The notes beneath the pieces are model-generated. The model was not told the DNA's origin and searched no databases. It saw nothing but the letters and a program-made list of their open reading frames with translations. DNA of 64,000 nucleotides from Thermoleophilia bacterium (GTDB lineage Bacteria; Actinomycetota; Thermoleophilia; RBG-16-64-13). Shown here piece after piece: positions 23,941-42,719 of this stretch. Each line of letters opens with the position of its first letter. The stretch's first letter is position 1. Position numbers and translations under genes: made by a program. The DNA lies in contig JAOSKU010000001.1 of NCBI GenBank assembly GCA_027493445.1, positions 1,878,822 to 1,942,821 on the forward strand. The letters are read 5' to 3'.

Positions 23941-24080
23941 TACTGTTATTTTGTGACAGGCCCTTAGAGGCGCCTAGCCTCTCGCTCTAGAAGCGTTCTC
24001 AAGGCTACAAACCGCGATCGGGCCCGAGCGAGCAGGGCTCCGTGCCCCCTCGTTATGCAGGTACGGTCTCCACTAATTGA

Positions 24081-25030
<950 letters not shown>

Positions 25031-25085
25031 CCGGTCTGGGGTCGTGGGCACGGCCTGTCCCCTTGCTTCCACCCACCCTAAGGGC

Positions 25086-25500: not shown

Positions 25501-25519
25501 CCGTAGTTCTTCGGCGAGG

Positions 25520-25888
25520 TTACTCAGACTCTTGGCCTTCGGAGCGCAGGGGCTGCTCGGGGTCGCCGCGGCTGTCCGTGTCTACCTGGCGCTCCAGATC
25601 GCCAAGCAGGCTGGGGTCCTTCTCCACCAGGGGCTTGCGGCCCGCACCCGGGCGACGAACCCGGCCGGGCTCAAACCTCTCCCCGCGCTTAAGCTCACCG
25701 CGGCCGCGCCGGATGGTGGAGCGCGCCATTCCAGTCGCTCGCGCAACCGCCGCCGTCCCGCCCCGCCCCTGGGCGTTGGCCTCCGCCGCCGCCCACAGCC
25801 GCATCCCGCGCTCGTCGAGCCGGACGGCAAGCATCTGGAATAGGCGATGGTAGCTCATTCCAACGACTTCCCCGATCAGAGGGAACAA
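25520..25888 (-). pseudogene. second ISAzo13-family transposase copy, N-terminal 120-aa fragment
   Basis: LAVRLDERGMRLWAAAEANAQGRGGTAAVARATGMARSTIRRGRGEL is collinear with the N-terminus of the 22525-23906 transposase (LAPFLDERSRRLVAAAEALAAGRGGNTLVARVTGVSRRAITAGSREL). Confidence 0.55.
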
Positions 25889-26098
25889 GCCACGCCCACC
25901 GTACGTATAGAAAGGCCTCGTCCCGCCTCTTGAATGGGCACAAAGCCATCTAGCAGGCCGCTGAAATACCCCGGTTGGAGCCCCTCCGATGTGCTCCGTT
26001 GCTCGGCTGCTTGACCCACGAACGGTCGGTTCTCGGATTGCCCGGGCGAAGACCGGGATTATGCCCCCTGGAGAGGCCGATTCCCCGCCCCTTTTTCC

Positions 26099-27268
26099 CT
26101 ATCTGGCGATGCACTCCGGAAGCAGCGATCTCATTCTCACCAGGTTGTAGGCGGCGGCCGTGAACTGGAAGATCCATCGGGCCTTGGCCCGCCCGCGGTG
26201 CCGGAGCTTGTGAAGCAGTCCGACTGTCTTCATCCAGCCGAAGGCCTCCTCCACCAGCTTGCGCTTCTTCTGGCTGAGGGCGTATCCCTCCCACCGTGTC
26301 GTGCGGCCATCGATGGCCGAGTACTTCTCTTTGCGAGCCACATGCGGGGTAACAACGTTAGTCCGTAGTTCGCCCACGAAGTCCTTGGTGTCGTAGTTCT
26401 TGTCGGCTGCGACAGTGAACCGGCCCTTGGTCTTTTTGCGCTCCTCCTTCACCAGCTCAAGACCCATCTCCCGCTCGGCGGTACCGGTGGCCCGGGAGAG
26501 ATCGGCCTGGACGATGAGACCGTGGCGGTTCTCGGTGAGGAGATGGCCGGCATAAGCGAGCCGGGCCGCTTCTCCGGGAGAGTGTTTGGCAAGAAGAGCT
26601 TCCGGATCGGTGGTGGAAGCGTGGGTGTCATTCCGGCGCCGCTCGCCGTGGAAATCCACACTCGGGTTGCGGTCGCGGCCTGCGCTTTCCGAGACTGGCT
26701 CGGCGGGGCTCGGGTCCTCCCCTGCACCCGGGTCATCTTTGCCTGGCCCCCGGCCGCCCTCCTGGCCCTCGGCCAATTCCTGTTTGGGCCGGAAGCTCTT
26801 GAGGGAGGCCGCCGCTTCCACCAAGGTGCCGTCCAGGCTGAAGTGCTCCCGGGAAAGGAGTTTCCCCGCCTGGGCCTGCTTCCTCACCTCCAGGAAGAAG
26901 GCCTCGGCCACCTCGCCCTCAAGCAGGCGCTCCCGGTTTTGGGTGAAGGTGGTGGGATGCCAGACGGGCTCGTTTAGATCGAGGCCCACAAACCAGCGAA
27001 AGAGCAGGTGATACTCGAGGTGTTCGCAGAGCTTGCGCTCCGAAGGGATGGCGTAGAGCACCTGAATAAGCAGGGCTCGCAGAAGGTACTCGGGCGGGAT
27101 GGAGGGGCGGCCGGCTTCACAGTAGATCTTGTCAAAGAGGGGGGAGAGACCGCAAAGCGCCTTATCGGTCATCTTGCGGATGGCCCGCAAGGGGTGATCT
27201 TTGGGGATGCGCTCCTCCAAGGGACCCAAGAATACAAACGACGGCTGCCTTGCCTCTTCTCCCCGCAT
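26099..27268 (-). CDS. IS5-family DDE transposase (DUF772 N-terminal region plus DDE_Tnp_1), apparently intact
   Basis: 389 aa. LRALLIQVLYAIPSERKLCEHLEYHLLFRWFVGLDL (DUF772) and C-terminal ...DKNYDTKDFV..., ...GWMKTVGLLHKLRHRG... Confidence 0.7.
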   Translation of the reverse strand: MRGEEARQPSFVFLGPLEERIPKDHPLRAIRKMTDKALCGLSPLFDKIYCEAGRPSIPPEYLLRALLIQVLYAIPSERKLCEHLEYHLLFRWFVGLDLNEPVWHPTTFTQNRERLLEGEVAEAFFLEVRKQAQAGKLLSREHFSLDGTLVEAAASLKSFRPKQELAEGQEGGRGPGKDDPGAGEDPSPAEPVSESAGRDRNPSVDFHGERRRNDTHASTTDPEALLAKHSPGEAARLAYAGHLLTENRHGLIVQADLSRATGTAEREMGLELVKEERKKTKGRFTVAADKNYDTKDFVGELRTNVVTPHVARKEKYSAIDGRTTRWEGYALSQKKRKLVEEAFGWMKTVGLLHKLRHRGRAKARWIFQFTAAAYNLVRMRSLLPECIAR

Positions 27269-27383
27269 CCCAACCCCCTCGCTTTATGCCAGTTTGCAGG
27301 GTAAACACTACCAAAAAGGGGCGCAAAAAGATAGGAAGTTGAGGCAATCGGAGGGCTAGGCGGGGGACTTTTTCAGCAGCCTG

Positions 27384-27557
27384 TTAGGCAGTCTTCCTCC
27401 CCCGAGCGGGCTTGGGAGGGAAGGAGACAAGGCGCTCAGGGTGCTGCTGCTCATGTTTCCGCAGATCGGCTGCCATGGCACGCAGATCGTAGCCAAACTG
27501 CTTGGCGTATTCCTGGCGAAGACGTCGCGTTTCTTCAACGATTGGATCGGCCTGCAT
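27384..27557 (-). CDS. small (57 aa) conserved-looking protein immediately downstream of the PIN gene, a candidate antitoxin/partner
   Basis: MQADPIVEETRRLRQEYAKQFGYDLRAMAADLRKHEQQ.... The start codon abuts the stop of the PIN gene. Family not recognised with certainty. Confidence 0.4.
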   Translation of the reverse strand: MQADPIVEETRRLRQEYAKQFGYDLRAMAADLRKHEQQHPERLVSFPPKPARGRKTA

Positions 27558-27559
27558 GG

Positions 27560-28045
27560 TTAGCCCTCCATGAGTTCCTCGGGTGTGCAGATCACAGGGC
27601 AGGCATAGCCTTCCTCTTCCACCAGCGTTTCGATCCGATGGCGGAGCAAGGCGTTCGCAAGATGCTTGTGGTTCCACGTCAGAAGATAGTCGATGCCGTT
27701 GACGGCGGCTACGGCGATGTGAAGGGCATCGGCCCCGGACTCTCGCGGGATCAACCCACTTGACACGAGGTATTCAGCGAGGGAAACGGCGGGATCGCTG
27801 ACCGCCAGGATGCCCATTCCCTGAACCACCGCGAGGCGCCCACGAGAGGCGTCCGAGTCACCTCGGCCCGCCTCTTGCTCCACGAGCTCAGAGACAACCA
27901 ATTCAAAGCGACAGGATCGCTCATCCCACCATTGACGGGTCAGCTCCTGATGGGCAGCTACGACCACGTCACGACTGGGGCGACTCGTCAGGTAGCTGAT
28001 AACACTGGTCTCGATGTACACCCGCTGCTTCATCGCCAAGAGCAT
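27560..28045 (-). CDS. PIN-domain nuclease (VapC-like toxin family)
   Basis: RVYIETSVISYL N-terminus (first acidic residue), GADALHIAVAAVNGIDYLLTWNHKHLAN C-terminal PIN motifs. Confidence 0.6.
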   Translation of the reverse strand: MLLAMKQRVYIETSVISYLTSRPSRDVVVAAHQELTRQWWDERSCRFELVVSELVEQEAGRGDSDASRGRLAVVQGMGILAVSDPAVSLAEYLVSSGLIPRESGADALHIAVAAVNGIDYLLTWNHKHLANALLRHRIETLVEEEGYACPVICTPEELMEG

Positions 28046-28793
28046 ATCAGATGCCGATTCGTGCTCAGTTTCGGCCGGTCCGGTGACAGGCTCAGCCGGC
28101 CGAAGTCGTTCGAACGATCTCCCGTTCGTGGGCCAGGCTATGCGCGCGTCGGCAACGCGGGCATCTCAGGCTTCTGAGTCCTTCCCCTTGCGCTTGATCA
28201 GGCCGGAAATGTCGAGTTAAGAGCGGCGACCACCCGCTCGGATACAATCCACATCTCTTCTTGGTCCAGGCGAACGGCCCGCCGGAGGAGGCTTCCTTGC
28301 GCACCGGGGCGACGCTCTCCCCGCAGGAGCCGGCCATACCAGCCAGGGCGCGCTCGATGGGTGTCGGCAACGGAATTGATGGGCGCCACGGTTCAAGTTG
28401 GACGAGAATATGGCCGCACGTGCGGCAGCGGGTGTCGCCGACCTACGATCGTCCTCTCCCCCAACTCCGCAGGCACCACATGACCGCGCGAGCGATGCAC
28501 CTACGGGCGTGCCGCCCGTTCGAGCATGTTCCGAGGCAAGATACGGCTTTGGTTGCATGGCGCCCAGGGAACCGGCCATGCGATCTTGACATCGCGGGAA
28601 TACGCGGTGCTTACAGGAAGACCGCAGCCATGTGGAAGGCCACCACTGGAGGAAGGTCGTTCGCCGGCGGATGTCGCAGCATGCCCGAGACGAACTCCGG
28701 CGGCGCCGAATTCCAGTACACCTTCTGGGAGAAGCGGTCGCAAGCCCGCAACAAATCGTTGCGGTACATTGGCATCTATGTCATATTACTGCT

Positions 28794-29435
28794 ATGAAGT
28801 ACGACGAGCTTCTTGAGATCCTCGGTGATGCACCCGTCTTTGATTCGTCTCTGTTGCGCGCGGGCGACGTCGACCCCGCCGGCGTGGCGAGCCAGCTCTC
28901 GCGCTGGGTCTCAACCGGAAGGCTGCTGCAGCTGCGCCGGCGCGTCTACGCCGTGCCGGCGGCCCGTCGTCGCCGGGCGCCTTATGCGTTCGAGACGGCG
29001 AACCTGCTCGTGCGCCCGTCCTACGTGAGTCTGGAGGCCGCCCTCAGCTTCCACGGGATGATCCCTGAGGCCGTGTTCACCACGACCAGCATCACAAGCG
29101 CACGGCCGGCACTCTATCGCACCCCCCTCGGCGATTTCGACTACCGCCACGTCTCGGAGGCTCTCTTCTGGGGCTACCAGAACACCGAGGTCGCCCCCGG
29201 GGTGAGCGCGCTGGTGGCCCGTCCCGAAAAAGCGCTGCTCGATCTGGTGTACCTGCGACCTCGCGGTGACGACCCCGCGTTCCTGCACGAACTGCGCCTC
29301 GAACGGCTGGAGCGACTGGACACGGCCGCTCTCGAAGGCATGGCGCAGCGTACCGGAAGACCCAAGCTGGCGCGGGCTGCGTGCCGGATCGCCGGGATCG
29401 CCGCCCGATACGCTGAAGAATACGAGACGCTGTGA
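28794..29435 (+). CDS. abiEi: AbiEi-family antitoxin/transcriptional regulator (type IV TA)
   Basis: MKYDELLEILGDAPVFDSSLLRAGDVDPAGVASQLSRWVSTGRLLQLRRRVYAV is the AbiEi_4 N-terminal domain. Confidence 0.75.
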   Translation: MKYDELLEILGDAPVFDSSLLRAGDVDPAGVASQLSRWVSTGRLLQLRRRVYAVPAARRRRAPYAFETANLLVRPSYVSLEAALSFHGMIPEAVFTTTSITSARPALYRTPLGDFDYRHVSEALFWGYQNTEVAPGVSALVARPEKALLDLVYLRPRGDDPAFLHELRLERLERLDTAALEGMAQRTGRPKLARAACRIAGIAARYAEEYETL

Positions 29436-30241
29436 AGGAACATGCCATCGGCATCGTCAGACGAACGGATATGGCCGGCGGCCTCAACCTCCTGCGCGAG
29501 TACGTGCAGTCCCGCATACTGGGCGTGATGCAGGAGGCCGGGGCGATGATACCTCTCGCCTTCATGGGAGGCACGGCCCTGAGGTTCATCTACCGGATTC
29601 CCCGTTACTCCGAGGACCTGGATTTCACAGTGGAGCACGCCACCGAGGGATACAGGCTGCGAACCCTGGCTTCGCGCATCGAACGCCGCCTACAGCGCGA
29701 GGGCTACACGGTACGCGTGCGAATCAGCGACTCCCGCGCGGTTGCCATGGCGATGGTGGGGTTCGTGGGGTTGCCTGCCGAAGCAGGTCTGTCCCCTCAC
29801 GCCAATCAGGTCCTGTGGGTCAAAATCGAAGTGGACACCACCCCGCCGGCGGGTGCCGGCCTGGCCGTGAGCGTGGTCGACCGATTCGGGCTGCTGCGGC
29901 TCCAACATCATGACCTGCCCTCGCTGTTCGCAGGCAAGGTGGCCGCCGTCCTGGCGAGGAGCTACACGAAAGGGCGGGACCTCTACGATCTGATGTGGTA
30001 TCTCACGCGTGGGGAGGGAGTCGAGCCCAACTTCGTGCTGCTCGCCAATGCGTTGCGGCAGACCGCTCCGGGCATGGTCAAGGCGGTCGAGGCAGATTGG
30101 CGAGGTGCCGTCCGAAGGAGGCTCGAGCATGTGGATTGGCAGGACGCGAGACGTGATGTCGCGCCCTTCCTCGAGCAGGGACGAGACGTGGAGCTCATCT
30201 CGGCTGAGACGTTCGCGGCCCTGTTGAGAGGCGCCGAGTAA
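29432..30241 (+). CDS. abiEii: AbiEii/AbiGii-family nucleotidyltransferase toxin (DUF1814)
   Basis: LAFMGGTALRFIYRIPRYSEDLDFTVE nucleotidyltransferase motif. 4-bp overlap with abiEi. Confidence 0.75.
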   Translation: MKEHAIGIVRRTDMAGGLNLLREYVQSRILGVMQEAGAMIPLAFMGGTALRFIYRIPRYSEDLDFTVEHATEGYRLRTLASRIERRLQREGYTVRVRISDSRAVAMAMVGFVGLPAEAGLSPHANQVLWVKIEVDTTPPAGAGLAVSVVDRFGLLRLQHHDLPSLFAGKVAAVLARSYTKGRDLYDLMWYLTRGEGVEPNFVLLANALRQTAPGMVKAVEADWRGAVRRRLEHVDWQDARRDVAPFLEQGRDVELISAETFAALLRGAE

Positions 30242-30467
30242 TCGGCGGCCCGGTCGCTCCGGGCGCCCCTTGCCACCTTCGGCTCCTGCATGCGGCGCCC
30301 GATGTCGCGCGAGACAGCGTGCACAGCGGCGGCCCTGGTCTTGAATGATGTGTTTGACAGCGGATTATGCATGGCTGTATCGTGAATTATGCAGGGTCGC
30401 TTCCGTGGCACGATCGCATTCCGGAGCTGCCCCCGCCACTGAATGTCAGAGAAGGGCTGCGATTTCC

Positions 30468-31589
30468 ATGGTCGCGCGGTTCACTGCGGTGCCCAAGGTG
30501 GATGAGGTAATCCTGCATCCGTTGGAGATACCGCTCGCGCATCCCTTTTCCACCTCCCAAGCGACCCAGCAGACCGGCCGCTTCATCCTGGTGGAAGTCC
30601 GGGCGGAGGGGCTGGTTGGTTTCGGGGAGGCTGACCCGCGCCCCCACATTACCGGGGAGACGGTCGCAAGCGCAATGGCCGTACTGGAACGCGAATTCAT
30701 CCCCGCCGCTCGTTCGCGCTCGGTTGCCGACCTGGTCGGTCTCCACGCCTCCATGGCGCCGGTCAAGCTGAACTTCTGTGCCAAAGCCGCTCTCGATATC
30801 GCCTTCCACGACCTGCTGGGCCAGGCTCTCGGCCTACCCGTGCGCGATCTCCTGGGAGGGTCGGCGCGGGAGCGGGTGGTGCTGAACGCATGGTCCGGAT
30901 TGTCGCAGGACCCGGAAGCCACCGCCGAGGAGCTTCTCTCCAAGGTAGCCGCGGGGTATGACCGGGCGGTCAAGGTCAAGGTGGGCAACAACCAGACGGC
31001 AGAGACTCAGCTGCTCGAACGGCTCGTTTCCCGGCTGCCGCCGAGTGTCGCCCTGATCGTCGATGCGAATCAAGCCTGGTCATACCCTGAAGCCCGGCAG
31101 CGGCTCTCGCGGCTCGCCGAGCTCGGAGTCACAATCGCCGAGCAACCAGTCGGGTGGCGAGACGTGGCCGGGCTCCGCCGGCTCAACCAGTGTCTGCCTC
31201 TGGCCGTCATGGCCGACGAGAGCGCCTGGACCGCGGCCGATGCGTTTCGCCTCTTGGCCGACGAGGCCGCCGGCATGCTCAACCTGAAACTTCTCAAATG
31301 CGGCGGGCTGCAGCCGGCGCGTGAGTTCCTATCTGTGGCGCAGGCCGCCGGTGCGCCCTGCATGGTCGGGAGCACCGTGCAGACGGCCGTGAGCGCGGCT
31401 GCCCAGGCCCATCTGGCCGCGGCCTCTCCCATTGTGACTCTGGCCGACATCGTTACCCCCAGCGACTTCCTGGTTGAGGACGTGGCAAGCGGCTTCGAAG
31501 TACGCGCCGGGGCGGCCGTGATCGGCGACAAGCCTGGCCTGGGAATCGAGATCGACAGACGGCTCCTTGAAAAGTACCGATTGGAGTAG
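30468..31589 (+). CDS. enolase-superfamily enzyme, mandelate racemase / muconate lactonizing (dipeptide epimerase or N-succinyl-amino-acid racemase-like)
   Basis: KVKVG, IVDANQAW, MADES and LKLLKCGGL metal/acid-base motif positions of the MR/MLE subgroup. The ORF is open from 30345. Confidence 0.7.
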   Translation: MVARFTAVPKVDEVILHPLEIPLAHPFSTSQATQQTGRFILVEVRAEGLVGFGEADPRPHITGETVASAMAVLEREFIPAARSRSVADLVGLHASMAPVKLNFCAKAALDIAFHDLLGQALGLPVRDLLGGSARERVVLNAWSGLSQDPEATAEELLSKVAAGYDRAVKVKVGNNQTAETQLLERLVSRLPPSVALIVDANQAWSYPEARQRLSRLAELGVTIAEQPVGWRDVAGLRRLNQCLPLAVMADESAWTAADAFRLLADEAAGMLNLKLLKCGGLQPAREFLSVAQAAGAPCMVGSTVQTAVSAAAQAHLAAASPIVTLADIVTPSDFLVEDVASGFEVRAGAAVIGDKPGLGIEIDRRLLEKYRLE

Positions 31590-32760
31590 GCGTGGAGATC
31601 TCGATCAAGGAGAGAGTCTGCGCGATGGTCGACGAGCTCCGGGGGAGCTGTTGGAGGTCTCCCGCCTGATCCATGAGAACCCCGAAACCCGCTTCGAGGA
31701 GCACAGGGCGGTGGAGTGGCTTTGCGCTGTGCTGGAATCGCGTGGTCACGCCGTCGAACGAGGAGTTGCTGGCCTGCCAACCGCTTTCCGAAGCTCGATG
31801 GAGCTGGCCGGTCAGGGACGAGTGGTGGCGTTTGTGGCCGAGTACGACGGTCTTCCCGTCATCGGTCACGGGTGTGGTCACAATCTCATCGCCGGAGCCT
31901 CGCTTGGCGCGTTTCTCGCCTTGGAGGCGGTGGGGGCGCACCTCCCCGGAACAGTCTCGCTACTGGGGACCCCCGGGGAGGAAGGCGGAGGGGGCAAGGT
32001 GACGATGCTCTCCCGAGGCGCCTTTGCCGGCTGCGATGCGGCACTCATGTTCCATCCCGCGCCGTTCACGGTCATGATCCCGGCCACCCTGACCACGGCC
32101 GACGTCACCGTTTCGTTTCGCGGCCGAGCGTCGCATGCAGCGGCGAATCCTGAGAATGGGATCAACGCGCTGGACGGTGTCATCAACACCTTCAACAGCA
32201 TGAACGCACTGCGCGGCTACATGCGCAGGGACGCGCGGGTCCATGGGATCATCACTCGCGGGGGCGAGAGCCAGAACGTCATACCTGAGGCGGCGGAAGC
32301 GGTCTTCAGCGTGCGGGCGAAGGACGTTGCGTATCGAAGCGCGCTGGTTCAGGAGCTCAAGCGGTGTGCTGAGGGTGCTGCGTTGGCCTCAGGAGCACGA
32401 GTCACGGTTACCAACCGAGGGGTTCGCAATTCGCTCACGACGAATCGCCGTCTGATCTCGTTCTTCACGGCGAATCTCGTCTCGCTGGGAGAGAGAACGA
32501 GGGCCGGCCAGCCGCGCCCTTTCTCCACCGATATGGGCGACGTCAGTCACTCTGTGCCCTCTATTCACCCGACGATCTCGATCTGCGAGGAAGGCGTGTC
32601 CCTGCACTCCACCGAGTTCGCACGTGCGGCCGGGTCGGAGCGAGGCCGCGAGGTGATGCTAACAGCAGCCAAGGCTCTGGCCATGACTGCCGTCGATCTG
32701 CTCACAGCCGTGCAGGAACCGCATTCCCGCCGGCGCGCCGCGGCCGGCGAGAGGAGGTGA
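31567..32760 (+). CDS. M20-family amidohydrolase (N-acyl-L-amino acid amidohydrolase / hippurate hydrolase-like)
   Basis: LIHENPETRFEE...GHGCGHNLIAGASLGA...G.PGEEGGGGK are the M20D metal-binding motifs. Confidence 0.75.
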   Translation: MKSTDWSRRGDLDQGESLRDGRRAPGELLEVSRLIHENPETRFEEHRAVEWLCAVLESRGHAVERGVAGLPTAFRSSMELAGQGRVVAFVAEYDGLPVIGHGCGHNLIAGASLGAFLALEAVGAHLPGTVSLLGTPGEEGGGGKVTMLSRGAFAGCDAALMFHPAPFTVMIPATLTTADVTVSFRGRASHAAANPENGINALDGVINTFNSMNALRGYMRRDARVHGIITRGGESQNVIPEAAEAVFSVRAKDVAYRSALVQELKRCAEGAALASGARVTVTNRGVRNSLTTNRRLISFFTANLVSLGERTRAGQPRPFSTDMGDVSHSVPSIHPTISICEEGVSLHSTEFARAAGSERGREVMLTAAKALAMTAVDLLTAVQEPHSRRRAAAGERR

Positions 32761-32819
32761 TGTCGGTCGGGTGGTGACACGTACCGGGCCTGTTGACGGC
32801 GTCTAGATAGGAGCTGTGC

Positions 32820-34709
32820 ATGAAGGGCGGTTACTGCGGCAAGATACTTAGAGTCGATCTGGATGCAGAGAACTTCACTGACGAACCGCTGCCCGAGGAT
32901 CCGGTTCTGCGCAAGTTCGTCGGAGGGTGGGGACTCGGTCTGTATTTCTATAGCAGGGAGTACAAGCCAGGCTTCGGATTCAAGGACCCGCGCACCCCTC
33001 TCATCTTCACGACCGGTCCGCTTACGGGCACCAGGGTTCCCTCGGCTACGAACACGACGGCCGTCACTTTGAACTCGGAGACCGGCTACACCACAGCCCG
33101 ATCACACTCGCACGGAGCTTTCGGACAGAAGCTGAAGGCGGCGGGCTATGACGGCATCATCATCACCGGGCGGGCGAAGAAGCCAGTGTATCTTTGGATC
33201 GACGACAGCGGTCCGAGGCTCTACGACGCGGCCGGCGTCTGGGGCCTTGACACGCATGATACAGAGGACGCCGTCAAGGCCGAGCGAGGTATCGAGGAGG
33301 GGCGCAAAGCAAGCGTTGCCGCCATCGGCCCGGCTGGCGAGAACGTCTGCCACGGAGCTCTGATCCAGAACGACAAGCATCACTCTTTCTCCCATGCCGG
33401 CACCGGAGCGGTCATGGGCGCCAAGAACCTCAAGGCAATCGGAACGGCGGGGACCGCCAAGGTGCCCGTACATGACCCGGCAGCGCTCAAGGAGTCGGCC
33501 AAGCTCTGGCGGGAGAGCCTGCTCGGCTGCGAGATGGGGCAGTTCTGGGTAGCCGGTGGCAAGGATGCAGCAGGCCGGCACTCGGTGTGGGAGTACGATA
33601 AGAGGGAGAGCCTCATCTCGGCCCAGAACTTCCAGCGGGTAAGCCCACCCGAGTGGCTTGATGACATCGAAGACATCGCCGAGGTGCGCAAGAAAGGTTG
33701 CCCGGGGTGTCCGCTCGGCTGTTCCTATGAGGTCGAGATCCACAAAGGGCCTTTTGCGGGCCAGGTCTTCACTCCTTCCGGCGGCGGCGAGAACATGGAG
33801 GGGAGCGCCTCGATCATCGGCGTCTACGACACCGCGCGGGTCTACATGCTCACCGACACCAATGATCGGATGGGGTTCGAAGCCGGAGCCGCGGGGACCA
33901 CACTGGCGCTTGCCATTGAGGCATACAAGAAAGGGCTACTGACCAGGGAGGACACTGATGGTCTCGAACTCCGTTGGGGCGACGCGGACCTAGGCGCGGC
34001 CCTGATCCGCAAGATGGCCCACCGCGAAGGTGCGTTTGGGGAGATTTTGGCACTTGGAGCACCCGGACTTGCCCGGCGCATCGGCGGTGAGGCCCTCGAC
34101 ATGGTGGCCCATGTGAAGGGCGGCAGCATCAACCACCACGACTGGCGGGCCTCCTGGGGCATCTTCTTTGGTCAGATCGTCGGCGGCGCCTCCGGCTGGC
34201 CGGCCCCGGGCGTCACGAACTTCACCACGGAGCCTTCGATTGGCTACGATACCTTCCAGGAGCCGCTGACCCCGGAGGGCAAGCCCCTCGCCTCCCGCAT
34301 GACGGGCATGCTCAAGTTCTATAACGACTCCGTCGGCACTTGCTGGAACTCCCTCTGGGGAGTGCCGCGCAGCCTGCAGTCAACCACGGAGTGCATCGCG
34401 GCGGCCACCGGTTGGGACTTCACCCCAGAGGAGGCGCTCACGTTGGGAGAACGGCTGATGAACCTGGAACGGGTGTGCAACCTGCGAAACGGCTTCACAA
34501 AGACGGACGACTTCGACATCGGCCCGCGCCTTCTGCAGGCCCCCACTGAGGGACGGGCGAAGGGCCGCTCAATCAAGCCCTTCTTGCCTGGGATGATCGA
34601 CGAATACTATGAGCTCATGGGCTGGGATGTGAAGACGGGCCGGCCTTACCGGGCAACCCTCGAGCGTCTCGGGTTGGAGGAGTACGCTCTGTTCGTCTGG
34701 ACTGACTGA
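32820..34709 (+). CDS. aldehyde:ferredoxin oxidoreductase family (tungsto/molybdopterin enzyme)
   Basis: N-terminal MKGGYCGKILRVDLDAENFTDEPL is the AOR signature. 629 aa. Confidence 0.8.
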   Translation: MKGGYCGKILRVDLDAENFTDEPLPEDPVLRKFVGGWGLGLYFYSREYKPGFGFKDPRTPLIFTTGPLTGTRVPSATNTTAVTLNSETGYTTARSHSHGAFGQKLKAAGYDGIIITGRAKKPVYLWIDDSGPRLYDAAGVWGLDTHDTEDAVKAERGIEEGRKASVAAIGPAGENVCHGALIQNDKHHSFSHAGTGAVMGAKNLKAIGTAGTAKVPVHDPAALKESAKLWRESLLGCEMGQFWVAGGKDAAGRHSVWEYDKRESLISAQNFQRVSPPEWLDDIEDIAEVRKKGCPGCPLGCSYEVEIHKGPFAGQVFTPSGGGENMEGSASIIGVYDTARVYMLTDTNDRMGFEAGAAGTTLALAIEAYKKGLLTREDTDGLELRWGDADLGAALIRKMAHREGAFGEILALGAPGLARRIGGEALDMVAHVKGGSINHHDWRASWGIFFGQIVGGASGWPAPGVTNFTTEPSIGYDTFQEPLTPEGKPLASRMTGMLKFYNDSVGTCWNSLWGVPRSLQSTTECIAAATGWDFTPEEALTLGERLMNLERVCNLRNGFTKTDDFDIGPRLLQAPTEGRAKGRSIKPFLPGMIDEYYELMGWDVKTGRPYRATLERLGLEEYALFVWTD

Positions 34710-34723
34710 AGGAGAGGGATGAC

Positions 34724-36034
34724 ATGAAGCGGCGTATCATTTGGGCCCTGGCGGCGGCCCTCCTGCTTACCATTGGTCTACTCTCTGGTTCCTGCGCCGG
34801 CGAGGAAGCCACAACGACAACATCCGCCGAGGAGCCTGCCACTACAGAGTCCACGGCTCCGAGCACCACGGCGGCCGCCCTTGACCGGCCGGTCAAGATT
34901 GGCGGTACTCTTCCACTGTCCGGGCCCGCGGCGGGGGACGGGCAGCGCTTCCTGGACGGGCGCAAGCTGGCGGTCAAGAAGATCAACGCGGCCGGAGGGG
35001 TGCTCGGCCAGCAAATCGAGCTGGTGGTAGTCGACGACGGCTTCGAGCCGGCCAAAGTGCCCTCTCTGTACGAGAACCTGGTCCGGCAGGACAAGCTGGA
35101 CGTGCTGCTGTCGTCCTACGGAGCGCCCATGACAATGCCGGCGATGGCGGTCGCCGACAAGTATGACAAGCTTGTGCTGAGCGGCTACTCGTCCTCGACC
35201 GGGCTCATGGAGCAGTATGGGGGCAAGCGCTTCTTCACCGTAGCGGCCCAGCCCAAGGACAAGATGTACGTCAACTGGTTCTACCGGGGCCTGACCGACT
35301 TCCTTGCGGATTTCGATTCCTGGAATACGAAAGCCGACGTCCAGAAGCCCACCAAGATAGCCGTGCTCAACGAGAATCAGCTCTGGGGGATTGAGCAGCA
35401 TGACTTGTGGAAACCGCATGCCGAGCAACAAGGCTGGGAGATCGTCGTCGACGAGTTCGTGGAGATGAACCAGATGGAGTTCTCCTCCCTGATCTCGAAG
35501 ATCAAGTCGGCGAACCCCGACGTGATCATGACAGAGTTCTTCTACTTCCGTTCGGTGCCCTTCGTGAAGCAGCTGAAGGAGCAAGGCGTCAAGGCTGACT
35601 TCGTCGCCTGCAGCGAGGCAGGGACGACTGCCGATTGGGCCGACGAGACCAAAGGCGCCGGCGCCGTCGGCAACAACGTCATCACTTTCGACTACCTTCC
35701 CGCCGCCTACACCGGCGGCGGTAGTGAGGAGTTTCGCGCCGACTTCAAGGCCGAGTACGGCCGCGACCCTGGCTTTCTCGAGGCAGCCGGCTACGCTGAG
35801 GTCCAGGTGCTGGCGCAGGCCATCGAGACCGCGGGCAGCATCGAGACGGACGCGCTGCGGGACGCCCTGCTCAGCGGAAGCTTCGAGACTGTCTACACCT
35901 CGGCGAAGTTCGACAGCATGGGCCTGAACGCCGAGTTCAATCCGGTCGTAGGGCAATGGATCGACGGTCGGCTTGAGAGTGTCTACCCGAAGGACGCAGC
36001 CACCGCGGAGCTGGTCTATCCCTTTGCCCAGTGA
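34724..36034 (+). CDS. ABC transporter substrate-binding protein, branched-chain amino acid (LivK/LivJ) type, lipoprotein
   Basis: N-terminal lipobox LLSGSCAG, a Thr/Ala-rich linker, and periplasmic binding protein type 1 features. Confidence 0.7.
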   Translation: MKRRIIWALAAALLLTIGLLSGSCAGEEATTTTSAEEPATTESTAPSTTAAALDRPVKIGGTLPLSGPAAGDGQRFLDGRKLAVKKINAAGGVLGQQIELVVVDDGFEPAKVPSLYENLVRQDKLDVLLSSYGAPMTMPAMAVADKYDKLVLSGYSSSTGLMEQYGGKRFFTVAAQPKDKMYVNWFYRGLTDFLADFDSWNTKADVQKPTKIAVLNENQLWGIEQHDLWKPHAEQQGWEIVVDEFVEMNQMEFSSLISKIKSANPDVIMTEFFYFRSVPFVKQLKEQGVKADFVACSEAGTTADWADETKGAGAVGNNVITFDYLPAAYTGGGSEEFRADFKAEYGRDPGFLEAAGYAEVQVLAQAIETAGSIETDALRDALLSGSFETVYTSAKFDSMGLNAEFNPVVGQWIDGRLESVYPKDAATAELVYPFAQ

Positions 36035-36133
36035 ATCTCCATCGAGTGCTCTTCGGTGGACAAGCGCCGGCCTTCGCCGGCGCTTGTCCACCCGGCTTGC
36101 CGTCTGCCGCGGCTGTGACTGGACCAGACGAGG

Positions 36134-37023
36134 ATGCACGTGAGTTCGTTTGCCGAAGCCGCTTTTCAAGTGGTGGTCTTCGGCCTGCTGGCCGGGAGCA
36201 TTTATAGCCTTCTCGGACTCGGCCTCACGCTCATCATGGGTGTGGGCAAGATCCTTAACATCAGCCATGGGGACCTGGGTATTCTGGGCGCCTATGCGGC
36301 CTACGCGGCCTTCATCGGCTGGGGTGTCGATCCCCTGCTCATGCTGGTGGTTGTCATCCCCTTGCTCGGCCTTCTGGGCGGGGGATCCAGCGTTTTGTGA
36401 TCAGCCCAGCCATCACCGACCCCAAGTTCCGGACCACCGCCTCGGTCATGATCACCTACGGACTGGCCCTGGTCATCGCTAATGGGCTCACGGTGACGGC
36501 CTCGCCCAGCTACCGTTTTCTCAGCCTGAGCTACGCCTATTCCGGCGTCGAGGTGCTCGGCACCACCATCAATGTCCCGCGCCTGCTGGTGCTGGTCACT
36601 GCGTTCGTTGTCATGGCGCTGCTCGTGGCTCTGCTTCGCACCCGGCTCGGAAAGGCGATTCTGGCATCGGCGCAAGACCAGACCCTGGCCATGTTGGTCG
36701 GGGTGAACAACCGGCGGGTCGCAGCCCTTACGTTCGCCATCTCCTCTGGGCTCGCCGCAGTAGCCGGCGTCCTGTATATCCTCAACAACCCCCTCTATCC
36801 CGCCGTCGGCCTCGGTCTGACTATCAAAGGCTTGACCGTCATGGTGCTTGGCGGCATCGGCAATGTCCCCGGGGCGATGGTCGCCGGGCTCATTCTCGGT
36901 CTGGCCGAGTCCTTCACGTCGTTCTACATCGGCGACCTCTACCGGGACGTCATCGCATACTTGGTGCTCATCGTCGTGCTCCTCGTTCGTCCGAGCGGCA
37001 TCTTCCGGAGTCTGGAGGGATGA
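36134..37023 (+). CDS. livH: branched-chain amino acid ABC permease (LivH type), frame broken at G run 36380-36384
   Basis: 36134-36400 and 36397-37023 join as ...LLGLLGGGIQRFVISPAITD... if one G is added. Confidence 0.7.
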
Positions 37024-37051
37024 CCGACCAGGTGCCGGAGCGGAGAGCTTT

Positions 37052-38014
37052 GTGATCGGGCGCTACGGCATTGCGGGGGCATACGGCCTGGGTATGGCTG
37101 GAGCGGCTCTCGTCCTGGCGTTGCCCATCTTCGCACCGGGGATGGTCGGCTATGCGATCGGGCTCTTCATGTACGCCACCCTGGCAATGGGCTGGAACCT
37201 GCAGGGCGGCTACCTGGGCGATCTTTCCTTTGGCCACGTCGCGTTTTTCGGCCTGGGCGGGTATGGGGTTGCCCTCCTCATCGAGAACCACATCCTCGAC
37301 TGGGGCCCAATCAACGTGATTGTTGGTGCTCTCGGAGCGGCAGCTTTTGCAGCGGTGATCGGCGTACCGTTCCTGAGACTCAAGGGCTTCTACTTCGCCA
37401 TCGGAACCCTCGGCCTGTCGGGACTCCTTGCCCTGGTGTTCAAGAACCTGCTCGAGGATGTCACCCATGGTGCCGCGGGCATCATGGTGCCTGCGCCTCA
37501 GCCCTACCATATCGAGACCTTCTACTACTCCATACTAGGGATTGCTGTTCTCACCCTGGTCGGGTCCGCGATCCTCATACGTTCGCGAGTTGGCCTTGCT
37601 TTCCGCGCCGTGCGTGACAACCCGGAGGCCGCCTATTCACTGGGGATTCACGTGACGTTCTACCGTGTGCTCGGCTTCGCCGTGAGCGCTTTCGTCGTAG
37701 GGTTGGTGGGGGGCTTCTACGCCTACTACACCAACTACCTGAATCCGGACGGCATGTTCGCCGCCACCGTCAGTTTTGAGATGCTGGTCATGGTGTTCCT
37801 GGGTGGAGCCGGAACTCTGGGCGGCCCCCTTCTCGGTGCCGTTGTCTTCTATGTCCTCCAGGAAGTGGGACGGCAATACATCGGGCAGGGCTTCTACATC
37901 CTGCCGGCCTTGATTCTCATCATCGTGTTCATGTTCCTGCCCAGTGGACTCATGGGAGTGCCCCTGGGCCGCCGCCCGCGTTTTGGATTCTCCCGGAAGG
38001 TAGGCCGCAGGTGA
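37052..38014 (+). CDS. livM: branched-chain amino acid ABC permease (LivM type)
   Basis: Polytopic. The start is uncertain. The ORF is open from 36848 and overlaps livH. Confidence 0.65.
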   Translation: MIGRYGIAGAYGLGMAGAALVLALPIFAPGMVGYAIGLFMYATLAMGWNLQGGYLGDLSFGHVAFFGLGGYGVALLIENHILDWGPINVIVGALGAAAFAAVIGVPFLRLKGFYFAIGTLGLSGLLALVFKNLLEDVTHGAAGIMVPAPQPYHIETFYYSILGIAVLTLVGSAILIRSRVGLAFRAVRDNPEAAYSLGIHVTFYRVLGFAVSAFVVGLVGGFYAYYTNYLNPDGMFAATVSFEMLVMVFLGGAGTLGGPLLGAVVFYVLQEVGRQYIGQGFYILPALILIIVFMFLPSGLMGVPLGRRPRFGFSRKVGRR

Positions 38015-38751
38015 GCCTGCTCGAAGCACGTAGTATCGGAAAATCATTCGGGGGCGTGGTAGCGCTGGACGGCGTTGACATGGAGCTCCACGAGGGAGAG
38101 ATACTTGGGCTTATCGGACCGAACGGTTCGGGCAAGACAACGTTGTTCAATGTGCTGAGCGGCTTCTACAAGCCGGACCGCGGCTCTGTCCGCTACCGCG
38201 GTCGAGACATCACCGGGTGGCGCCCGGACCGGATATGCCGGGTCGGCATTGGCAGGACCTTCCAGCTGATCCACCCTTTCGAAACCATGAGCGTTCTGGA
38301 GAACGTGCTCGTCGGAGCGACCTTCGGCAAGCGCGGCCGGGAGCATCGCGGCTGCCGACAGCGCGCCTCGGAGGTTCTTGCTGAGGTGGGGTTGGCGACC
38401 AAAGCGCAGGGGGCCGTCGGCAGTCTCACCATGGCCGAGCTTCGGCACCTGGAGCTGGCCCGCGCGCTTGCCACGGCTCCTCGGGTGCTCTTCTTGGACG
38501 AGGCCATGGCCGGTCTGACCAACACCGAAACCGAGGATCTGATGCGGGAGGTGCGGGCTATCAGGGATCGGGGGGTGACGGTGTTCATCATAGAGCACGT
38601 GATGAAGGCCATCATGGGACTCTCGAACCGAGTAATGGTGCTGGAGTCGGGGAGGAAAATCGCCGAGGGCGCCCCCGAGGACGTGGTGAGCGACCGGCGG
38701 GTGATAGAGGCGTACCTGGGCAAGGACGGAGCGACACATGCTGCGGGTTGA
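38011..38751 (+). CDS. livG: ABC transporter ATP-binding protein (LivG type)
   Basis: Walker A GPNGSGKTT, signature LSGGQ-like and Walker B LFLDE. Confidence 0.8.
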   Translation: MSLLEARSIGKSFGGVVALDGVDMELHEGEILGLIGPNGSGKTTLFNVLSGFYKPDRGSVRYRGRDITGWRPDRICRVGIGRTFQLIHPFETMSVLENVLVGATFGKRGREHRGCRQRASEVLAEVGLATKAQGAVGSLTMAELRHLELARALATAPRVLFLDEAMAGLTNTETEDLMREVRAIRDRGVTVFIIEHVMKAIMGLSNRVMVLESGRKIAEGAPEDVVSDRRVIEAYLGKDGATHAAG

Positions 38752-39442
38752 GAACCTGTGCGCTGGCTACGGGCCAACTCGTGTGCTCTGGGACGTGGGA
38801 CTCGCCGTGGAGGAGCACGAGACGGTCATCATTGCGGGTTCCAACGGCGCCGGCAAGAGCACCCTTCTCAAGTGCATAGCGGGTGTGATGGAGCCCCAGG
38901 CAGGCGCGATCACCTTCAAGGAGCAGCGAATCGAGGGCCGCCCCGCGTACGACTTGGTGGCCCGGGGGCTCAGCTTGATACCGGAGGGGGGCCGAGTATT
39001 CCCCCACATGAGCGTAGCGGACAATCTCCAGATGGGAGCGCACCTGCTCAGAGATCGGGCTGCTCGGCAGGCGGCTCTGGACTCTGTCTACCATCTCTTC
39101 GCGGATCTGTACGAGAAGCGAAATCAGTATGCGCGCACCTTGAGCGGAGGGCAAAGGCAGATGCTGGCGATAGGCATAGGTCTCATGAGCCGACCAGCGC
39201 TTCTGATGGTGGACGAACCTTCCTCGGGTCTTTCTCCGCTCCTGGTGGGCTACTTGATGGACATGCTTACGAAGGTCACGGATTCGGGCCTGAGCGTGTT
39301 GCTTGTCGAGCAGAACATCCGCTCCGCCCTCGAGATAGCCGACCGGGGATACGTCATGGAGAACGGACGGATCATCATGGAGGGGACCAGTTCCGCGTTG
39401 AAGGAAAATGATTTCGTGCGCGAGGCCTACCTGGGCTTGTAG
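38738..39442 (+). CDS. livF: ABC transporter ATP-binding protein (LivF type)
   Basis: GSNGAGKST, LSGGQRQMLAIG and LLMVDEPSSGL. Confidence 0.8.
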   Translation: MLRVENLCAGYGPTRVLWDVGLAVEEHETVIIAGSNGAGKSTLLKCIAGVMEPQAGAITFKEQRIEGRPAYDLVARGLSLIPEGGRVFPHMSVADNLQMGAHLLRDRAARQAALDSVYHLFADLYEKRNQYARTLSGGQRQMLAIGIGLMSRPALLMVDEPSSGLSPLLVGYLMDMLTKVTDSGLSVLLVEQNIRSALEIADRGYVMENGRIIMEGTSSALKENDFVREAYLGL

Positions 39443-39448
39443 GAGCCG

Positions 39449-39640
39449 GTGCGAGGCAGGCGCCTCGTCGCTCCGGGGTTGCTCTGGTACGAGATGAGCG
39501 AGGTGCCCCAACTCGCTCTCGACAGTGGACTCACCGCTTGTGACGCCGCGTATCTTTCGCTGGCGCAGTCACTCCGGGCGCCCCTTGCCACCTTCGACCG
39601 GCGGCTGGGGGACGTCGCGACGCAGGCGACGGGCACAGCA
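39449..39640 (+). pseudogene. possible VapC (PIN) C-terminal remnant
   Basis: ...LTACDAAYLSLAQSLRAPLATFDRRL matches the PIN C-terminal consensus (sYDAaYlaLAr.lgaPLvTlDrrL). Nothing PIN-like lies upstream. Confidence 0.3.
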
Positions 39641-39646
39641 GGAGGA

Positions 39647-40039: not shown

Positions 40040-40077
40040 CCTTGCAAATCAGGTAACGCAGCTCCATAATTGCATAC

Positions 40078-41797: not shown

Positions 41798-41799
41798 TC

Positions 41800-41979
41800 A
41801 TGCCTCGCCACGATGGAACAGGACCGGAAGGTAAGGGCCCGGGCACGGGGCGCATGCTCGGCAACTGCGTCGTGTACGCCGCCGACTTCTTCCGCAACCT
41901 TCGGCGCAGGCCGCTGAGACCCCTGCGCCGGCTGCGGGAACCGCCGGCAGACTCCAACAGGCAACGGAACCGGGAATGA
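41800..41979 (+). CDS. DUF5320-like small protein (59 aa)
   Basis: MPRHDGTGPEGKGPGTGRMLGNC resembles the DUF5320 N-terminus MPRGDGTGPMGMGPMTGRG. It is coupled to PadR with a 2-nt gap and overlaps the GntR start (ATGA). Too short to appear in the ORF track. Confidence 0.45.
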   Translation: MPRHDGTGPEGKGPGTGRMLGNCVVYAADFFRNLRRRPLRPLRRLREPPADSNRQRNRE

Positions 41980-42719
41980 GCGCGCGGCTGCTTCAGGAGC
42001 ACGAGCAGCGATGCGGCCTCGAGCGTCCCCGTCTTGCCGACCTGCTGGCGGGCCGGATAGCGGAGACCGTCAGAAAAGAGGGTCTGCAAGACGGCGGGCG
42101 TCTCGGTTTTGAGCATGAGCTTCTGGAGCGCTACGACACCAGCCGGGCGGTTCTGCGAGAGGCCTTGCGCATGCTGGAGCGGGACGGAGTGGTGGCCACG
42201 AAACCGGGGCCGCGCGGCGGCGTCTTCGGTAGTACGCCCGACAGCGCCGGCGTCGTCCGCCTACTGGAGCTCTACAGCGACTTCCATGGTGTTCCCTCCG
42301 TCCAGCGCGAGCAGGCCCTGGTCGAGCTCGAGGTAGTGGCAGCTCAGCTGGCCGCCGCGCGCAGAACCAACGCGGACTTGGCCGATCTCAATCGGATCCA
42401 TAGGGCGTCGCTCCGGAGTGGCCGCACTGGGCACGACGCGGGCAGCACGCGGGCCTATCTCGATTTCCACGGAATCATCCTCCGTGCTGCGCACAACTCG
42501 ATCGTGCACCTCCTGCGTAACGCTCTGCTGGATCTCAGCCCCACGCCTCTCTGGGTCCGACCCAAGGATGAAGGCGCAAAGGCCGTGCCCTCCGCGCACC
42601 AGGAGATCCTGGAAGCGATCGCCGAGAGCGACCCTTCTCGCACCGGCTCCTGCATGCGGCGCCACCTCGAGGGGCGTCTGCTCCCTGGCCCTCGACCGGC
42701 CCGGGAAGATCGCGGCTGA
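41976..42719 (+). CDS. GntR-family (FadR/FCD subfamily) transcriptional regulator
   Basis: A GntR wHTH-like region near the N-terminus and a C-terminal FCD-like helical domain. Confidence 0.6.
   Translation: MSARLLQEHEQRCGLERPRLADLLAGRIAETVRKEGLQDGGRLGFEHELLERYDTSRAVLREALRMLERDGVVATKPGPRGGVFGSTPDSAGVVRLLELYSDFHGVPSVQREQALVELEVVAAQLAAARRTNADLADLNRIHRASLRSGRTGHDAGSTRAYLDFHGIILRAAHNSIVHLLRNALLDLSPTPLWVRPKDEGAKAVPSAHQEILEAIAESDPSRTGSCMRRHLEGRLLPGPRPAREDRG

What the first reader, a model, noticed from the sequence alone, without database searches (positions are those of the whole stretch)
30253..30300. Short chimeric repeat scar downstream of abiEii that matches two distant loci
30257-30281 (25 nt, CTCCGGGCGCCCCTTGCCACCTTCG) is identical to 39572-39596, inside the putative VapC remnant, where it is in the same reading frame (SLRAPLATF). 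The directly adjoining 30280-30299 (20 nt, CGGCTCCTGCATGCGGCGCC) is identical to 42644-42663, at the 3' end of the GntR gene and also in frame (GSCMRR). Two unrelated exact matches fused head to tail at the boundary of the mobile/TA island look like a recombination footprint. It could be a deletion or insertion junction, or a small mosaic repeat family.
Basis: seen in the sequence. Interest (0 to 1): 0.5.

Follow-up and report, generated by a model that had tools for sequence, protein, structure and literature searches.

The report
Mosaic gene-fragment scar beside abiE
The 45-base "chimera" is real, but it is an ordinary non-functional scar: the last remains of a dead vapC toxin gene joined to a 20-base piece of a nearby GntR regulator gene, left by sloppy DNA repair or deletion in a fast-changing toxin-antitoxin island.

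Summary
Both exact matches exist and are not chance. They are the two longest dispersed exact direct repeats in the window apart from one 20-mer in a duplicated RT-gene region, and they overlap by 2 nt (CG). The junction appears in five independent short-read assemblies and, with one substitution, in relatives about 4% diverged. It is therefore old and not an assembly artefact.

The left half is not a specific copy of 39572-39596. It is the conserved core of a widespread vapC/PIN family, and the same 25-mer occurs in intact vapC genes from other metagenomes. The local copy matches the family at 35-36 of 40 nt. It carries a different allele (Arg codon) from the 39.5 kb remnant, and its homology runs upstream to about 30232, into the abiEii stop codon.

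The right half is native coding sequence of the FCD/GntR gene (last helix, AMRRHLE) and is out of place at 30.2 kb.

I found no repeat family, integrase, RNA structure, Rfam hit or firm sequence constraint. The neighbouring vapC remnant shows two more microhomology deletion junctions.

Best reading: a neutral illegitimate-recombination scar (a captured or templated fragment, or a collapsed cassette) at the edge of a recently exchanged abiE cassette. Interest is low.

The parts
30232..30281 (+). Relic of the 3' part of a vapC (PIN) gene. It corresponds to codons ...DAAY-(gap)-SLA(R)SLRAPLATF. X' (30257-30281) is its fully conserved core. Its left end overlaps the last codons and stop codon of abiEii.
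   Evidence: 25/25 to the window remnant, L024 and L025; 35-36/40 to vapC family members. Upstream 30 nt aligns to the family with p about 0.001 for the L010 haplotype and 0.04 for the window. The protein alignment shows AARSLRAPLATF against the family motif LA(Q/R)SLRAPLATFDRRLG.
30280..30299 (+). Y': a 20-nt fragment (18 nt beyond the CG overlap) identical to the 3' region of the FCD/GntR gene, in the same orientation, joined to the vapC relic at a 2-nt microhomology.
   Evidence: Exact and unique pair in the window. The 20-mer occurs only 5 times in 596 Gb of genomes, always in unrelated contexts. It is native in GntR, not here.
30300..30333 (+). Possible continuation of the vapC relic after the patch. 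GATGTCGCG... reads DVAR in a shifted frame, compared with family ...GDVAR...
   Evidence: Local alignment to 39610-39645 has p about 0.006-0.01 against random window segments. It is not significant against other family members or for the L010 haplotype. Suggestive only.
29432..30241 (+). abiEii toxin gene. With abiEi (28794-29435) it forms a cassette that is nearly identical in diverged relatives.
   Evidence: Pfam AbiEii E=3e-24. There are 8 mismatches to L010 in 28757-30227, against 8-10% third-codon divergence in the operon.
30354..30383 (+). Sigma-70-like promoter of the downstream operon (TTGACA-18-TATCGT), with two ATTATGCA motifs around the -10 hexamer.
   Evidence: 10 of 12 consensus positions; 0.0 expected in shuffles. 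Sequence read.
30468..39442 (+). Metabolic operon: dipeptide-epimerase-like enolase, M20 peptidase, aldehyde:ferredoxin oxidoreductase, and a Liv-type ABC transporter.
   Evidence: Pfam; gene calls in L005 and L010.
39449..39646 (+). Decayed vapC remnant that holds X (39572-39596). It is 5'-truncated at the synteny break 39455/39456 (GCGAG microhomology) and has a 111-nt in-frame internal deletion at 39505 (TG microhomology).
   Evidence: PIN hit. Comparison with intact vapC genes in L024 and L025. Break relative to L010.
41976..42719 (+). GntR/FCD regulator gene. Y (42644-42663) encodes G224-R229 of the last FCD helix.
   Evidence: Pfam GntR + FCD. The homologue alignment gives consensus AMRRHLE with H230 and L231 invariant. 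Y is identical in the relative's gene in L018.
39435..39455 (-). Inverted near-copy (19/21, 14 nt exact) of GntR 42637-42657. It lies directly after the ABC ATPase stop codon and ends at the synteny break. Its relation to the scar is unresolved.
   Evidence: (I4).

Best explanation
30232-30333 is a neutral, non-coding scar made of gene debris. A vapC toxin gene of a widespread PIN family once lay between the abiE cassette and the promoter of the epimerase/peptidase/AFOR/ABC operon. Deletion removed all of it except roughly its last 25 codons.

Within that relic, the codons for DRRLG (about 13 nt) are replaced by 18 nt that are identical to the coding sequence of the last helix of the FCD/GntR regulator, whose gene now lies 12 kb downstream. 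The join shares 2 nt (CG).

Shown:
- both fragments are native elsewhere and foreign here;
- the junction is old and inherited;
- the same neighbourhood carries other microhomology deletion junctions.

Inferred: the GntR piece entered during illegitimate (end-joining or template-switching) repair of a break, either as a captured or templated 'filler' fragment. Alternatively it is what remains after microhomology-mediated deletions collapsed a former vapC...GntR cassette copy. I see no sign that the scar does anything today.
For: - Exact, unique, abutting matches that are not chance.
- Independent assemblies and diverged relatives carry the junction.
- X is the conserved core of a vapC family. 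It is identical in the window remnant, L024 and L025, which differ by 8-15% over 122 nt. The family has 164 homologues, with motif LA(Q/R)SLRAPLATFDRRLG.
- The relic matches the family at 35-36/40. It has the Arg allele seen in P0295/L028, not the Gln of the 39.5 kb remnant.
- Homology continues upstream to about 30232.
- Y encodes a conserved FCD helix in GntR, so GntR is the native context.
- The flanks of Y' do not resemble the GntR flanks (p=0.10 and 0.47), so only a short piece was transferred.
- The vapC remnant at 39.5 kb has two further deletion junctions with 2-5 nt microhomology.
- TA arrays of relatives are full of fragment repeats.
- No gene is called across the scar.
- The RNA fold z-score is 0.0, there is no Rfam match, and the only promoter-like site is the + strand operon promoter.
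- Divergence of the scar between haplotypes (11/115) is near the third-codon rate of the operon, 8-10%.
- Experimental precedent: DSB repair scars in Streptomyces ambofaciens carried 30-83 bp endogenous inserts (PMC5869714).
Against: - No allele without the patch, and none with a full cassette, was found, so the event itself is not observed.
- The resumption of vapC homology after Y' is only weakly supported (p about 0.006-0.01 uncorrected against the window remnant; not significant for the other vapC family members tested (L024, L025, L026, L020, L028, L029) or for the L010 haplotype against any of them). This leaves 'internal patch' and 'collapsed cassette' undistinguished.
- The 43-nt core differs at 1 position between haplotypes, against 10/75 in its immediate flanks (Fisher p=0.04). 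That could hint at constraint.
- A third GntR-like piece in inverted orientation at the other end of the conserved block is not explained by a single event.
- The whole 4.6-Mb source genome could not be searched for further copies.
Confidence: 0.7

Rival explanations
1. Recent short-tract gene conversion: the 30.2 kb locus is an old diverged paralogous sequence whose 25-nt and 20-nt tracts were recently overwritten from the 39.5 kb vapC remnant and the 42.6 kb GntR gene.
For: 100% identity of the tracts beside flanks of about 70% identity. The core is less diverged between haplotypes than its flanks.
Against: The identity of X needs no recent event, because the same 25-mer is conserved in vapC genes of other organisms. 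The relic carries another allele just upstream of X (CGG Arg and GTCG, against CAG and GTCA). The junction predates the split from relatives about 4% diverged. There is no flanking homology to GntR that could support conversion.
Confidence: 0.08
2. Attachment-site or transposon-end reading: the direct 25-nt repeats (30257 and 39572) are attL/attR-like cores or target duplications flanking a mobile 9.3-kb operon. Alternatively, the Y-like pieces at 30280 (+) and 39435 (-) are terminal inverted repeats.
For: The X copies bracket the whole operon. A Y-like inverted piece lies at the operon's 3' end, exactly at a synteny break.
Against: There is no integrase, transposase or recombinase between the repeats. 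Relative L010 has the left copy and the operon but no vapC copy on the right. X lies in frame inside a conserved PIN motif and continues naturally into DRRL on the right. The conserved block starts at 28757, not at X'.
Confidence: 0.04
3. Functional element: the 43-nt core has been co-opted. Examples would be an RNA segment pairing with, or mimicking, the GntR and vapC transcripts, a terminator for abiEii, or a protein-binding site upstream of the operon promoter.
For: The core shows 1/43 differences between haplotypes against 10/75 in the flanks (p=0.04). It lies 55 nt upstream of the -35 hexamer. An 8-bp inverted repeat, CGGGCGCC/GGCGCCCG, spans it.
Against: The fold is no more stable than shuffles (z=0.0). 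There is no Rfam family and no minus-strand promoter. Against the neutral rate the conservation is not significant (about 4 differences expected, 1 seen, P about 0.09). Only two haplotypes are known.
Confidence: 0.05
4. Dispersed short repeat family (REP/MITE-like), which would make the adjacency uninformative.
For: Three Y-related pieces exist in 64 kb.
Against: X has 0 hits in 185,579 species genomes. Y has 5 hits with unrelated flanks. A degenerate X pattern in JGI metagenomes hit only vapC genes. Both sequences are in-frame coding sequence of conserved protein motifs. There is no stable hairpin.
Confidence: 0.03
5. Chance coincidence or assembly chimera.
For: None beyond the short lengths involved.
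Against: Shuffle expectations are 0.00 and 0.04. Only three dispersed exact repeats of 19 nt or more exist in the window. Eight independent assemblies carry the junction.
Confidence: 0.01

Closest known systems
Short endogenous DNA insertions ('filler' or captured fragments) at illegitimate double-strand-break repair scars. Shown experimentally in Streptomyces ambofaciens (PMC5869714); capture of DNA by NHEJ shown in Sinorhizobium meliloti (PMC6379672); filler DNA is classic at eukaryotic end-joining junctions (PMC1976456, PMC8395108).
   Same: A patch of tens of nucleotides, perfectly matching another place in the same genome, sits at a junction with 0-few nt of microhomology. The host is an actinomycete-lineage bacterium. 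Hoff et al. saw inserts of 30, 42 and 83 bp from near and far loci.
   Different: Here the event is ancient and only inferred. The patch is shorter (18-20 nt). No pre-event allele is known, the presence of Ku/LigD in this genome was not checked, and a serial-deletion origin is not excluded.
Toxin-antitoxin pseudogene remnants in TA/defence islands (decayed vapC/PIN genes).
   Same: The left half and probably the tail are a truncated vapC of a well-populated family. A second, larger remnant lies 9 kb away. A relative (L020) also carries a truncated, chimeric copy of the same family.
   Different: The relic is interrupted by a piece of an unrelated regulator gene and supplies the stop codon region of abiEii.
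Microhomology-mediated deletion junctions.
   Same: There is a 2-nt overlap at X'/Y'. The order and orientation of the two pieces match the order of vapC and GntR in the intact segment, as a deletion of 39597-42643 would give. Two other such junctions lie in the neighbouring vapC remnant.
   Different: The sequence to the right of Y' is not the GntR tail, so at least one more event would be needed. The flanks are not those of a recent duplicate.

Membership tests
vapC/PIN gene remnant (left half) | Sequence homology to PIN-domain toxin genes over more than a chance-length stretch, in register with the conserved C-terminal motif (...yDAaYlaLA...PLaTfD...). | tested here: met
   35-36/40 nt to five family members and 29 nt exact to L025. 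The translated relic aligns as AARSLRAPLATF. Upstream extension has p about 0.001 for the L010 haplotype.
vapC/PIN gene remnant (left half) | Loss of coding integrity (no start, truncated, catalytic residues missing). | tested here: met
   Only about 17-25 codons remain. The fourth acidic residue (TfD) is replaced at the junction (F-G). The frame shifts after the patch.
Captured or templated filler fragment at an illegitimate repair junction (right half) | A short insert identical to a sequence that is native elsewhere in the same genome. | tested here: met
   20/20 to GntR codons 223-229, which lie in a conserved FCD helix. The 20-mer is otherwise essentially absent from 596 Gb of genomes.
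Captured or templated filler fragment at an illegitimate repair junction (right half) | Recipient sequence continues on both sides of the insert. | tested here: inconclusive
   The left side is clear. The right side is weak (p 0.006-0.01 against the window's own remnant; not significant for other comparisons).
Captured or templated filler fragment at an illegitimate repair junction (right half) | A pre-event allele lacking the insert, or end-joining machinery (Ku, LigD) in the genome. | not testable with these tools
   All known haplotypes carry the patch.
REP/MITE-like dispersed repeat | Many copies per genome, mostly intergenic. | tested here: not met
   Two copies of each half in 64 kb at up to 3 mismatches. 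There are no related hits in the species genome collection. Metagenome hits are vapC genes only. A whole-genome count for the source MAG was not possible.
REP/MITE-like dispersed repeat | Stable palindromic or hairpin structure. | tested here: not met
   MFE -48.9 kcal/mol against a shuffle mean of -48.9, z=0.0.
attL/attR of an integrated element | Identical cores flanking a segment that encodes, or is served by, a site-specific recombinase, and that is absent as a unit from empty sites. | tested here: not met
   There is no recombinase between the repeats. The relative keeps the left copy and the operon but lacks the right copy.
Gene conversion tract | Donor and recipient share flanking homology. 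| tested here: not met
   For Y', the flanks compared with GntR give p=0.10 and 0.47. For X', conversion is unnecessary because the tract is conserved across the family.
Structured or known non-coding RNA | Match to a curated family, or a fold better than shuffles. | tested here: not met
   The only Rfam hit is spurious (E=0.88) and lies elsewhere. Fold z=0.0.

The most novel reading that the evidence does not exclude
The 43-nt core is not neutral debris. It would be a co-opted element kept by selection, consistent with 1 difference in 43 nt between haplotypes against 10 in the 75 flanking nt. One possibility is an RNA or DNA segment that couples read-through from abiEii, or the operon promoter, to the GntR regulator through its perfect 20-nt identity with the GntR message. 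The inverted GntR-like piece at the operon's 3' end would then be its partner.
Probability: 0.05. Interest if true: 0.5.

Novelty: new member of a known kind. Interest (0 to 1): 0.15.

Why it matters
On its own it matters little. It adds no gene or mechanism, and annotators should simply leave it unannotated or mark it as a vapC pseudogene fragment.

Its modest value is as a clean natural example, in an uncultivated Thermoleophilia genome, of how toxin-antitoxin islands decay:
- genes are whittled down by microhomology deletions;
- short pieces of nearby genes end up in the junctions;
- one relic even supplies the stop codon of a neighbouring abiEii gene.

It also marks to within a few bases the edge of an abiE cassette that was recently exchanged between lineages about 4% apart. 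If such mosaic scars were mined systematically, they could show how much end-joining-type repair shapes wild bacterial genomes.

Tried and rejected
- **Chance:** rejected by shuffles and the exhaustive repeat scan.
- **Assembly artefact:** rejected by eight independent assemblies.
- **Repeat family:** X and Y scans of the species-genome collection and a degenerate X scan of JGI metagenomes found only chance hits or vapC genes.
- **att sites or a mobile operon:** no recombinase, and the relative lacks the right-hand copy.
- **RNA element or terminator:** fold z=0, no Rfam hit, no minus-strand promoter.
- **GntR once directly upstream of the operon, leaving Y' as its in-place remnant:** the GntR tail and downstream sequence do not match 30300-30467.
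- **Inversion between 39442-39455 and 42637-42650:** the pre-inversion GntR would lack its conserved last helix, so rejected (reasoning).
- **Y native at 30.2 kb and copied into GntR:** rejected, because FCD homologues conserve AMRRHLE there.
- **Integron-like attC sites in the TA arrays of relatives:** only paralogous gene-fragment repeats were seen.
- **Searches that led nowhere:**
  - The P0288 context (L027) was not syntenic.
  - The AbiE locus of L020 shares no nucleotide similarity downstream of abiEii.
  - The last 4 kb of the relative's 22-kb contig could not be fetched. It remains unknown whether an intact vapBC-GNAT-DUF4143 follows the extra TA cassettes there.

Full report
**1.

30257-30281 is identical to 39572-39596 (X, 25 nt). 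30280-30299 is identical to 42644-42663 (Y, 20 nt). Neither has a further copy in the window even at three mismatches, and dinucleotide shuffles give 0.00 and 0.04 expected matches.

An exhaustive scan for exact repeats shows that, outside one tandem-repeat gene, the window holds only three dispersed exact repeats of 19 nt or more. Two of them are X and Y, which abut with a 2-nt overlap, CG. In 596 Gb of species-representative genomes, Y occurs five times with unrelated flanks and X never occurs. Chance is excluded.

The 43-nt junction is identical in five independent Logan short-read assemblies. With one C-to-G change in X', it is present in three ENA contigs of relatives. It is therefore not an assembly chimera.

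**2. Context**

The source is a Thermoleophilia MAG with a 4.6-Mb contig. Pfam gives the following order:
- transposase and reverse-transcriptase debris (19.3-28 kb);
- abiEi-abiEii (28794-30241);
- a 226-nt spacer that holds the chimera and a promoter-like site, TTGACA-18-TATCGT, at 30354-30383;
- an operon at 30468-39442: dipeptide-epimerase-like enolase, M20 peptidase, aldehyde:ferredoxin oxidoreductase and a Liv-type ABC transporter;
- a PIN/VapC remnant (39449-39646, holds X);
- GNAT (minus strand), a DUF4143 ATPase, PadR and DUF5320;
- a GntR/FCD regulator (41976-42719, holds Y).

**3. What the left half is**

A degenerate X pattern in JGI metagenomes hit three loci, and all are vapC genes. 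Two of them (L024, L025) are intact 133-codon genes. The family is large: 164 homologues at E<=1e-10, with the C-terminal motif LA(Q/R)SLRAPLATFDRRLG.

The exact 25-mer X is shared by the window remnant, L024 and L025, although these differ by 8-15% over 122 nt. X is therefore a locally conserved core of the family, and identity to 39572-39596 does not indicate copying from that locus.

The 30.2 kb copy matches family members at 35-36 of 40 nt and is 29 nt exact to L025. It carries GTCG and an Arg codon (CGG), as in the P0295/L028 allele, where the 39.5 kb remnant has GTCA and Gln. Homology continues upstream to about 30232, that is into abiEii's last codons and stop codon. The test gives p about 0.001 for the L010 haplotype and 0.04 for the window haplotype.

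The left half is thus the relic of a separate vapC gene.

**4. What the right half is**

In GntR, Y encodes G224-R229 inside the last FCD helix. Homologues at about 30-35% identity conserve AMRRHLE there, with H230 and L231 invariant. The GntR gene is therefore the native context.

At 30.2 kb only 20 nt match. The flanks do not resemble the GntR flanks (p=0.10 and 0.47).

After Y' the sequence GATGTCGCG... resembles the vapC tail and reads DVAR in a shifted frame. The statistics are weak: p about 0.006-0.01 against the window's own remnant, and not significant for other family members or for the L010 haplotype.

Two sub-histories remain open.
- (a) An 18-nt GntR-derived patch replaced about 13 nt (the DRRLG codons) inside the vapC relic.
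- (b) A former vapC...GntR cassette copy collapsed by a deletion at the CG microhomology, followed by a further deletion to the right of Y'.

The same order and orientation of the two pieces as in the intact segment fits (b). The return to vapC-like sequence fits (a).

**5. Age and boundary**

The window and relative L010 share only 28757-39455, so abiE, scar and operon travel together. What lies left of 28757 and right of 39455 differs.

Within the block, 28757-30227 shows only 8 mismatches. 30228-30342 shows 11, and operon third-codon positions differ by 8-10%. The abiE cassette was therefore exchanged recently between lineages, and the edge of that exchange falls within a few bases of the relic's left end.

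Scar divergence (11/115) is close to the neutral rate. The 43-nt core has 1 difference against 10/75 in its flanks (Fisher p=0.04; about 0.09 against the neutral expectation). That is too weak, with only two haplotypes, to claim constraint.

**6. No sign of function**

- No gene is called across the spacer, and NCBI protein numbering is consecutive across it.
- The fold z-score is 0.0.
- There is no Rfam family.
- There is no minus-strand promoter.

**7. The neighbourhood shows the same kind of damage**

Compared with intact vapC genes, the 39.5 kb remnant is 5'-truncated exactly at the synteny break with L010. GCGAG is shared there by the operon flank and vapC. The remnant also has a 111-nt in-frame internal deletion with TG microhomology.

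A more distant relative (L020) carries another truncated, chimeric copy of the same vapC family. The TA arrays of relatives are full of fragment repeats.

**8. Comparison with what is known**

Short endogenous inserts of 30, 42 and 83 bp at double-strand-break repair scars were found experimentally in Streptomyces ambofaciens (PMC5869714). NHEJ-mediated capture of DNA was shown in Sinorhizobium (PMC6379672). Filler DNA is classic at eukaryotic end-joining junctions.

The present scar works like such a junction. Membership cannot be proven, because no pre-event allele is known and Ku/LigD could not be checked. Readings as a REP-like repeat, an att site, a gene conversion tract or an RNA family each fail a defining feature that was tested.

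**9. Verdict**

This is a real but ordinary footprint: gene debris at the edge of a mobile abiE cassette in a decaying toxin-antitoxin island.

Three points are not supported:
- that the two halves are unrelated exact copies of the two named loci;
- that 19342-30241 is a single insertion between those loci;
- that it is a mosaic repeat family.

One loose end remains. An inverted 19/21 match (14 nt exact) to GntR 42637-42657 lies directly after the operon's stop codon and ends at the 39455 break. Both edges of the conserved block therefore carry pieces resembling the same 27-nt stretch of GntR. I could not decide between chance, break-guiding microhomology and a second captured fragment.

Noticed in passing
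window 39435-39455 (minus strand) vs 42637-42657: Inverted 19/21 match (14 nt exact, GGAGCCGGTGCGAG) between the sequence just after the ABC ATPase stop codon and the GntR 3' region overlapping Y. It ends exactly at the synteny break with relative L010. About 0.01 such matches are expected per window. There is no covariation in relatives.
   Followed up: partly
window 28757-30227 vs L010 5245-6715 and L019: The abiEi-abiEii cassette is about 99.5% identical between lineages whose adjacent operon differs by 8-10% at third-codon positions. Divergence switches on sharply at 30228, and sequence to the left of 28757 is unrelated. This suggests a recent exchange of the abiE cassette.
   Followed up: partly
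window 39449-39646: The vapC remnant has two deletion junctions relative to intact homologues (L024, L025). One is a 5' truncation at a GCGAG microhomology. The other is a 111-nt in-frame internal deletion at about 39505 with TG microhomology.
   Followed up: yes
window 30354-30400: The operon promoter-like site TTGACA-18-TATCGT has two copies of ATTATGCA, one in the spacer and one just downstream of the -10 hexamer. These may be an operator for a repressor (GntR or PadR?).
   Followed up: no
window 44594-47398 (minus strand): A 934-aa repeat protein (divergent InlB B-repeat / Fn3-like) contains a perfect 921-nt tandem duplication (44610-45530 and 45531-46451). Relative L018 has it only once, so this is strain-level copy-number variation.
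   Followed up: partly
window 22520-22549: A 30-nt perfect palindrome, CGGACTTATGTTGAGCTCAACATAAGTCCG, lies inside the 3' part of the reverse-transcriptase ORF (21473-22690). It is the longest exact inverted repeat in the window.
   Followed up: no
window 20051-21498: Two RVT_N-containing ORFs (20639-21148 and 21473-22690) and repeats spaced 1020-1023 nt apart (including an exact 20-mer at 20456 and 21479) suggest a partial tandem duplication of a group-II-intron-type RT 5' region inside the transposon-rich segment.
   Followed up: no
L020 5076-5243 and 6154-6321: In a more distant relative, the homologous vapC is also only a C-terminal remnant. It is fused to a segment that is repeated 1078 nt downstream (27 nt exact, about 80% over 170 nt). 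This is another chimeric relic of the same toxin family.
   Followed up: partly
L010 16035-18077 vs window 39456-42790: Downstream of the operon the relative carries an Unstab_antitox gene and MNT/HEPN pairs, where the window has the vapC remnant-GNAT-DUF4143-PadR-DUF5320-GntR segment. The relative's PadR-DUF5320-GntR lies on another contig (L018) that starts inside DUF4143.
   Followed up: partly
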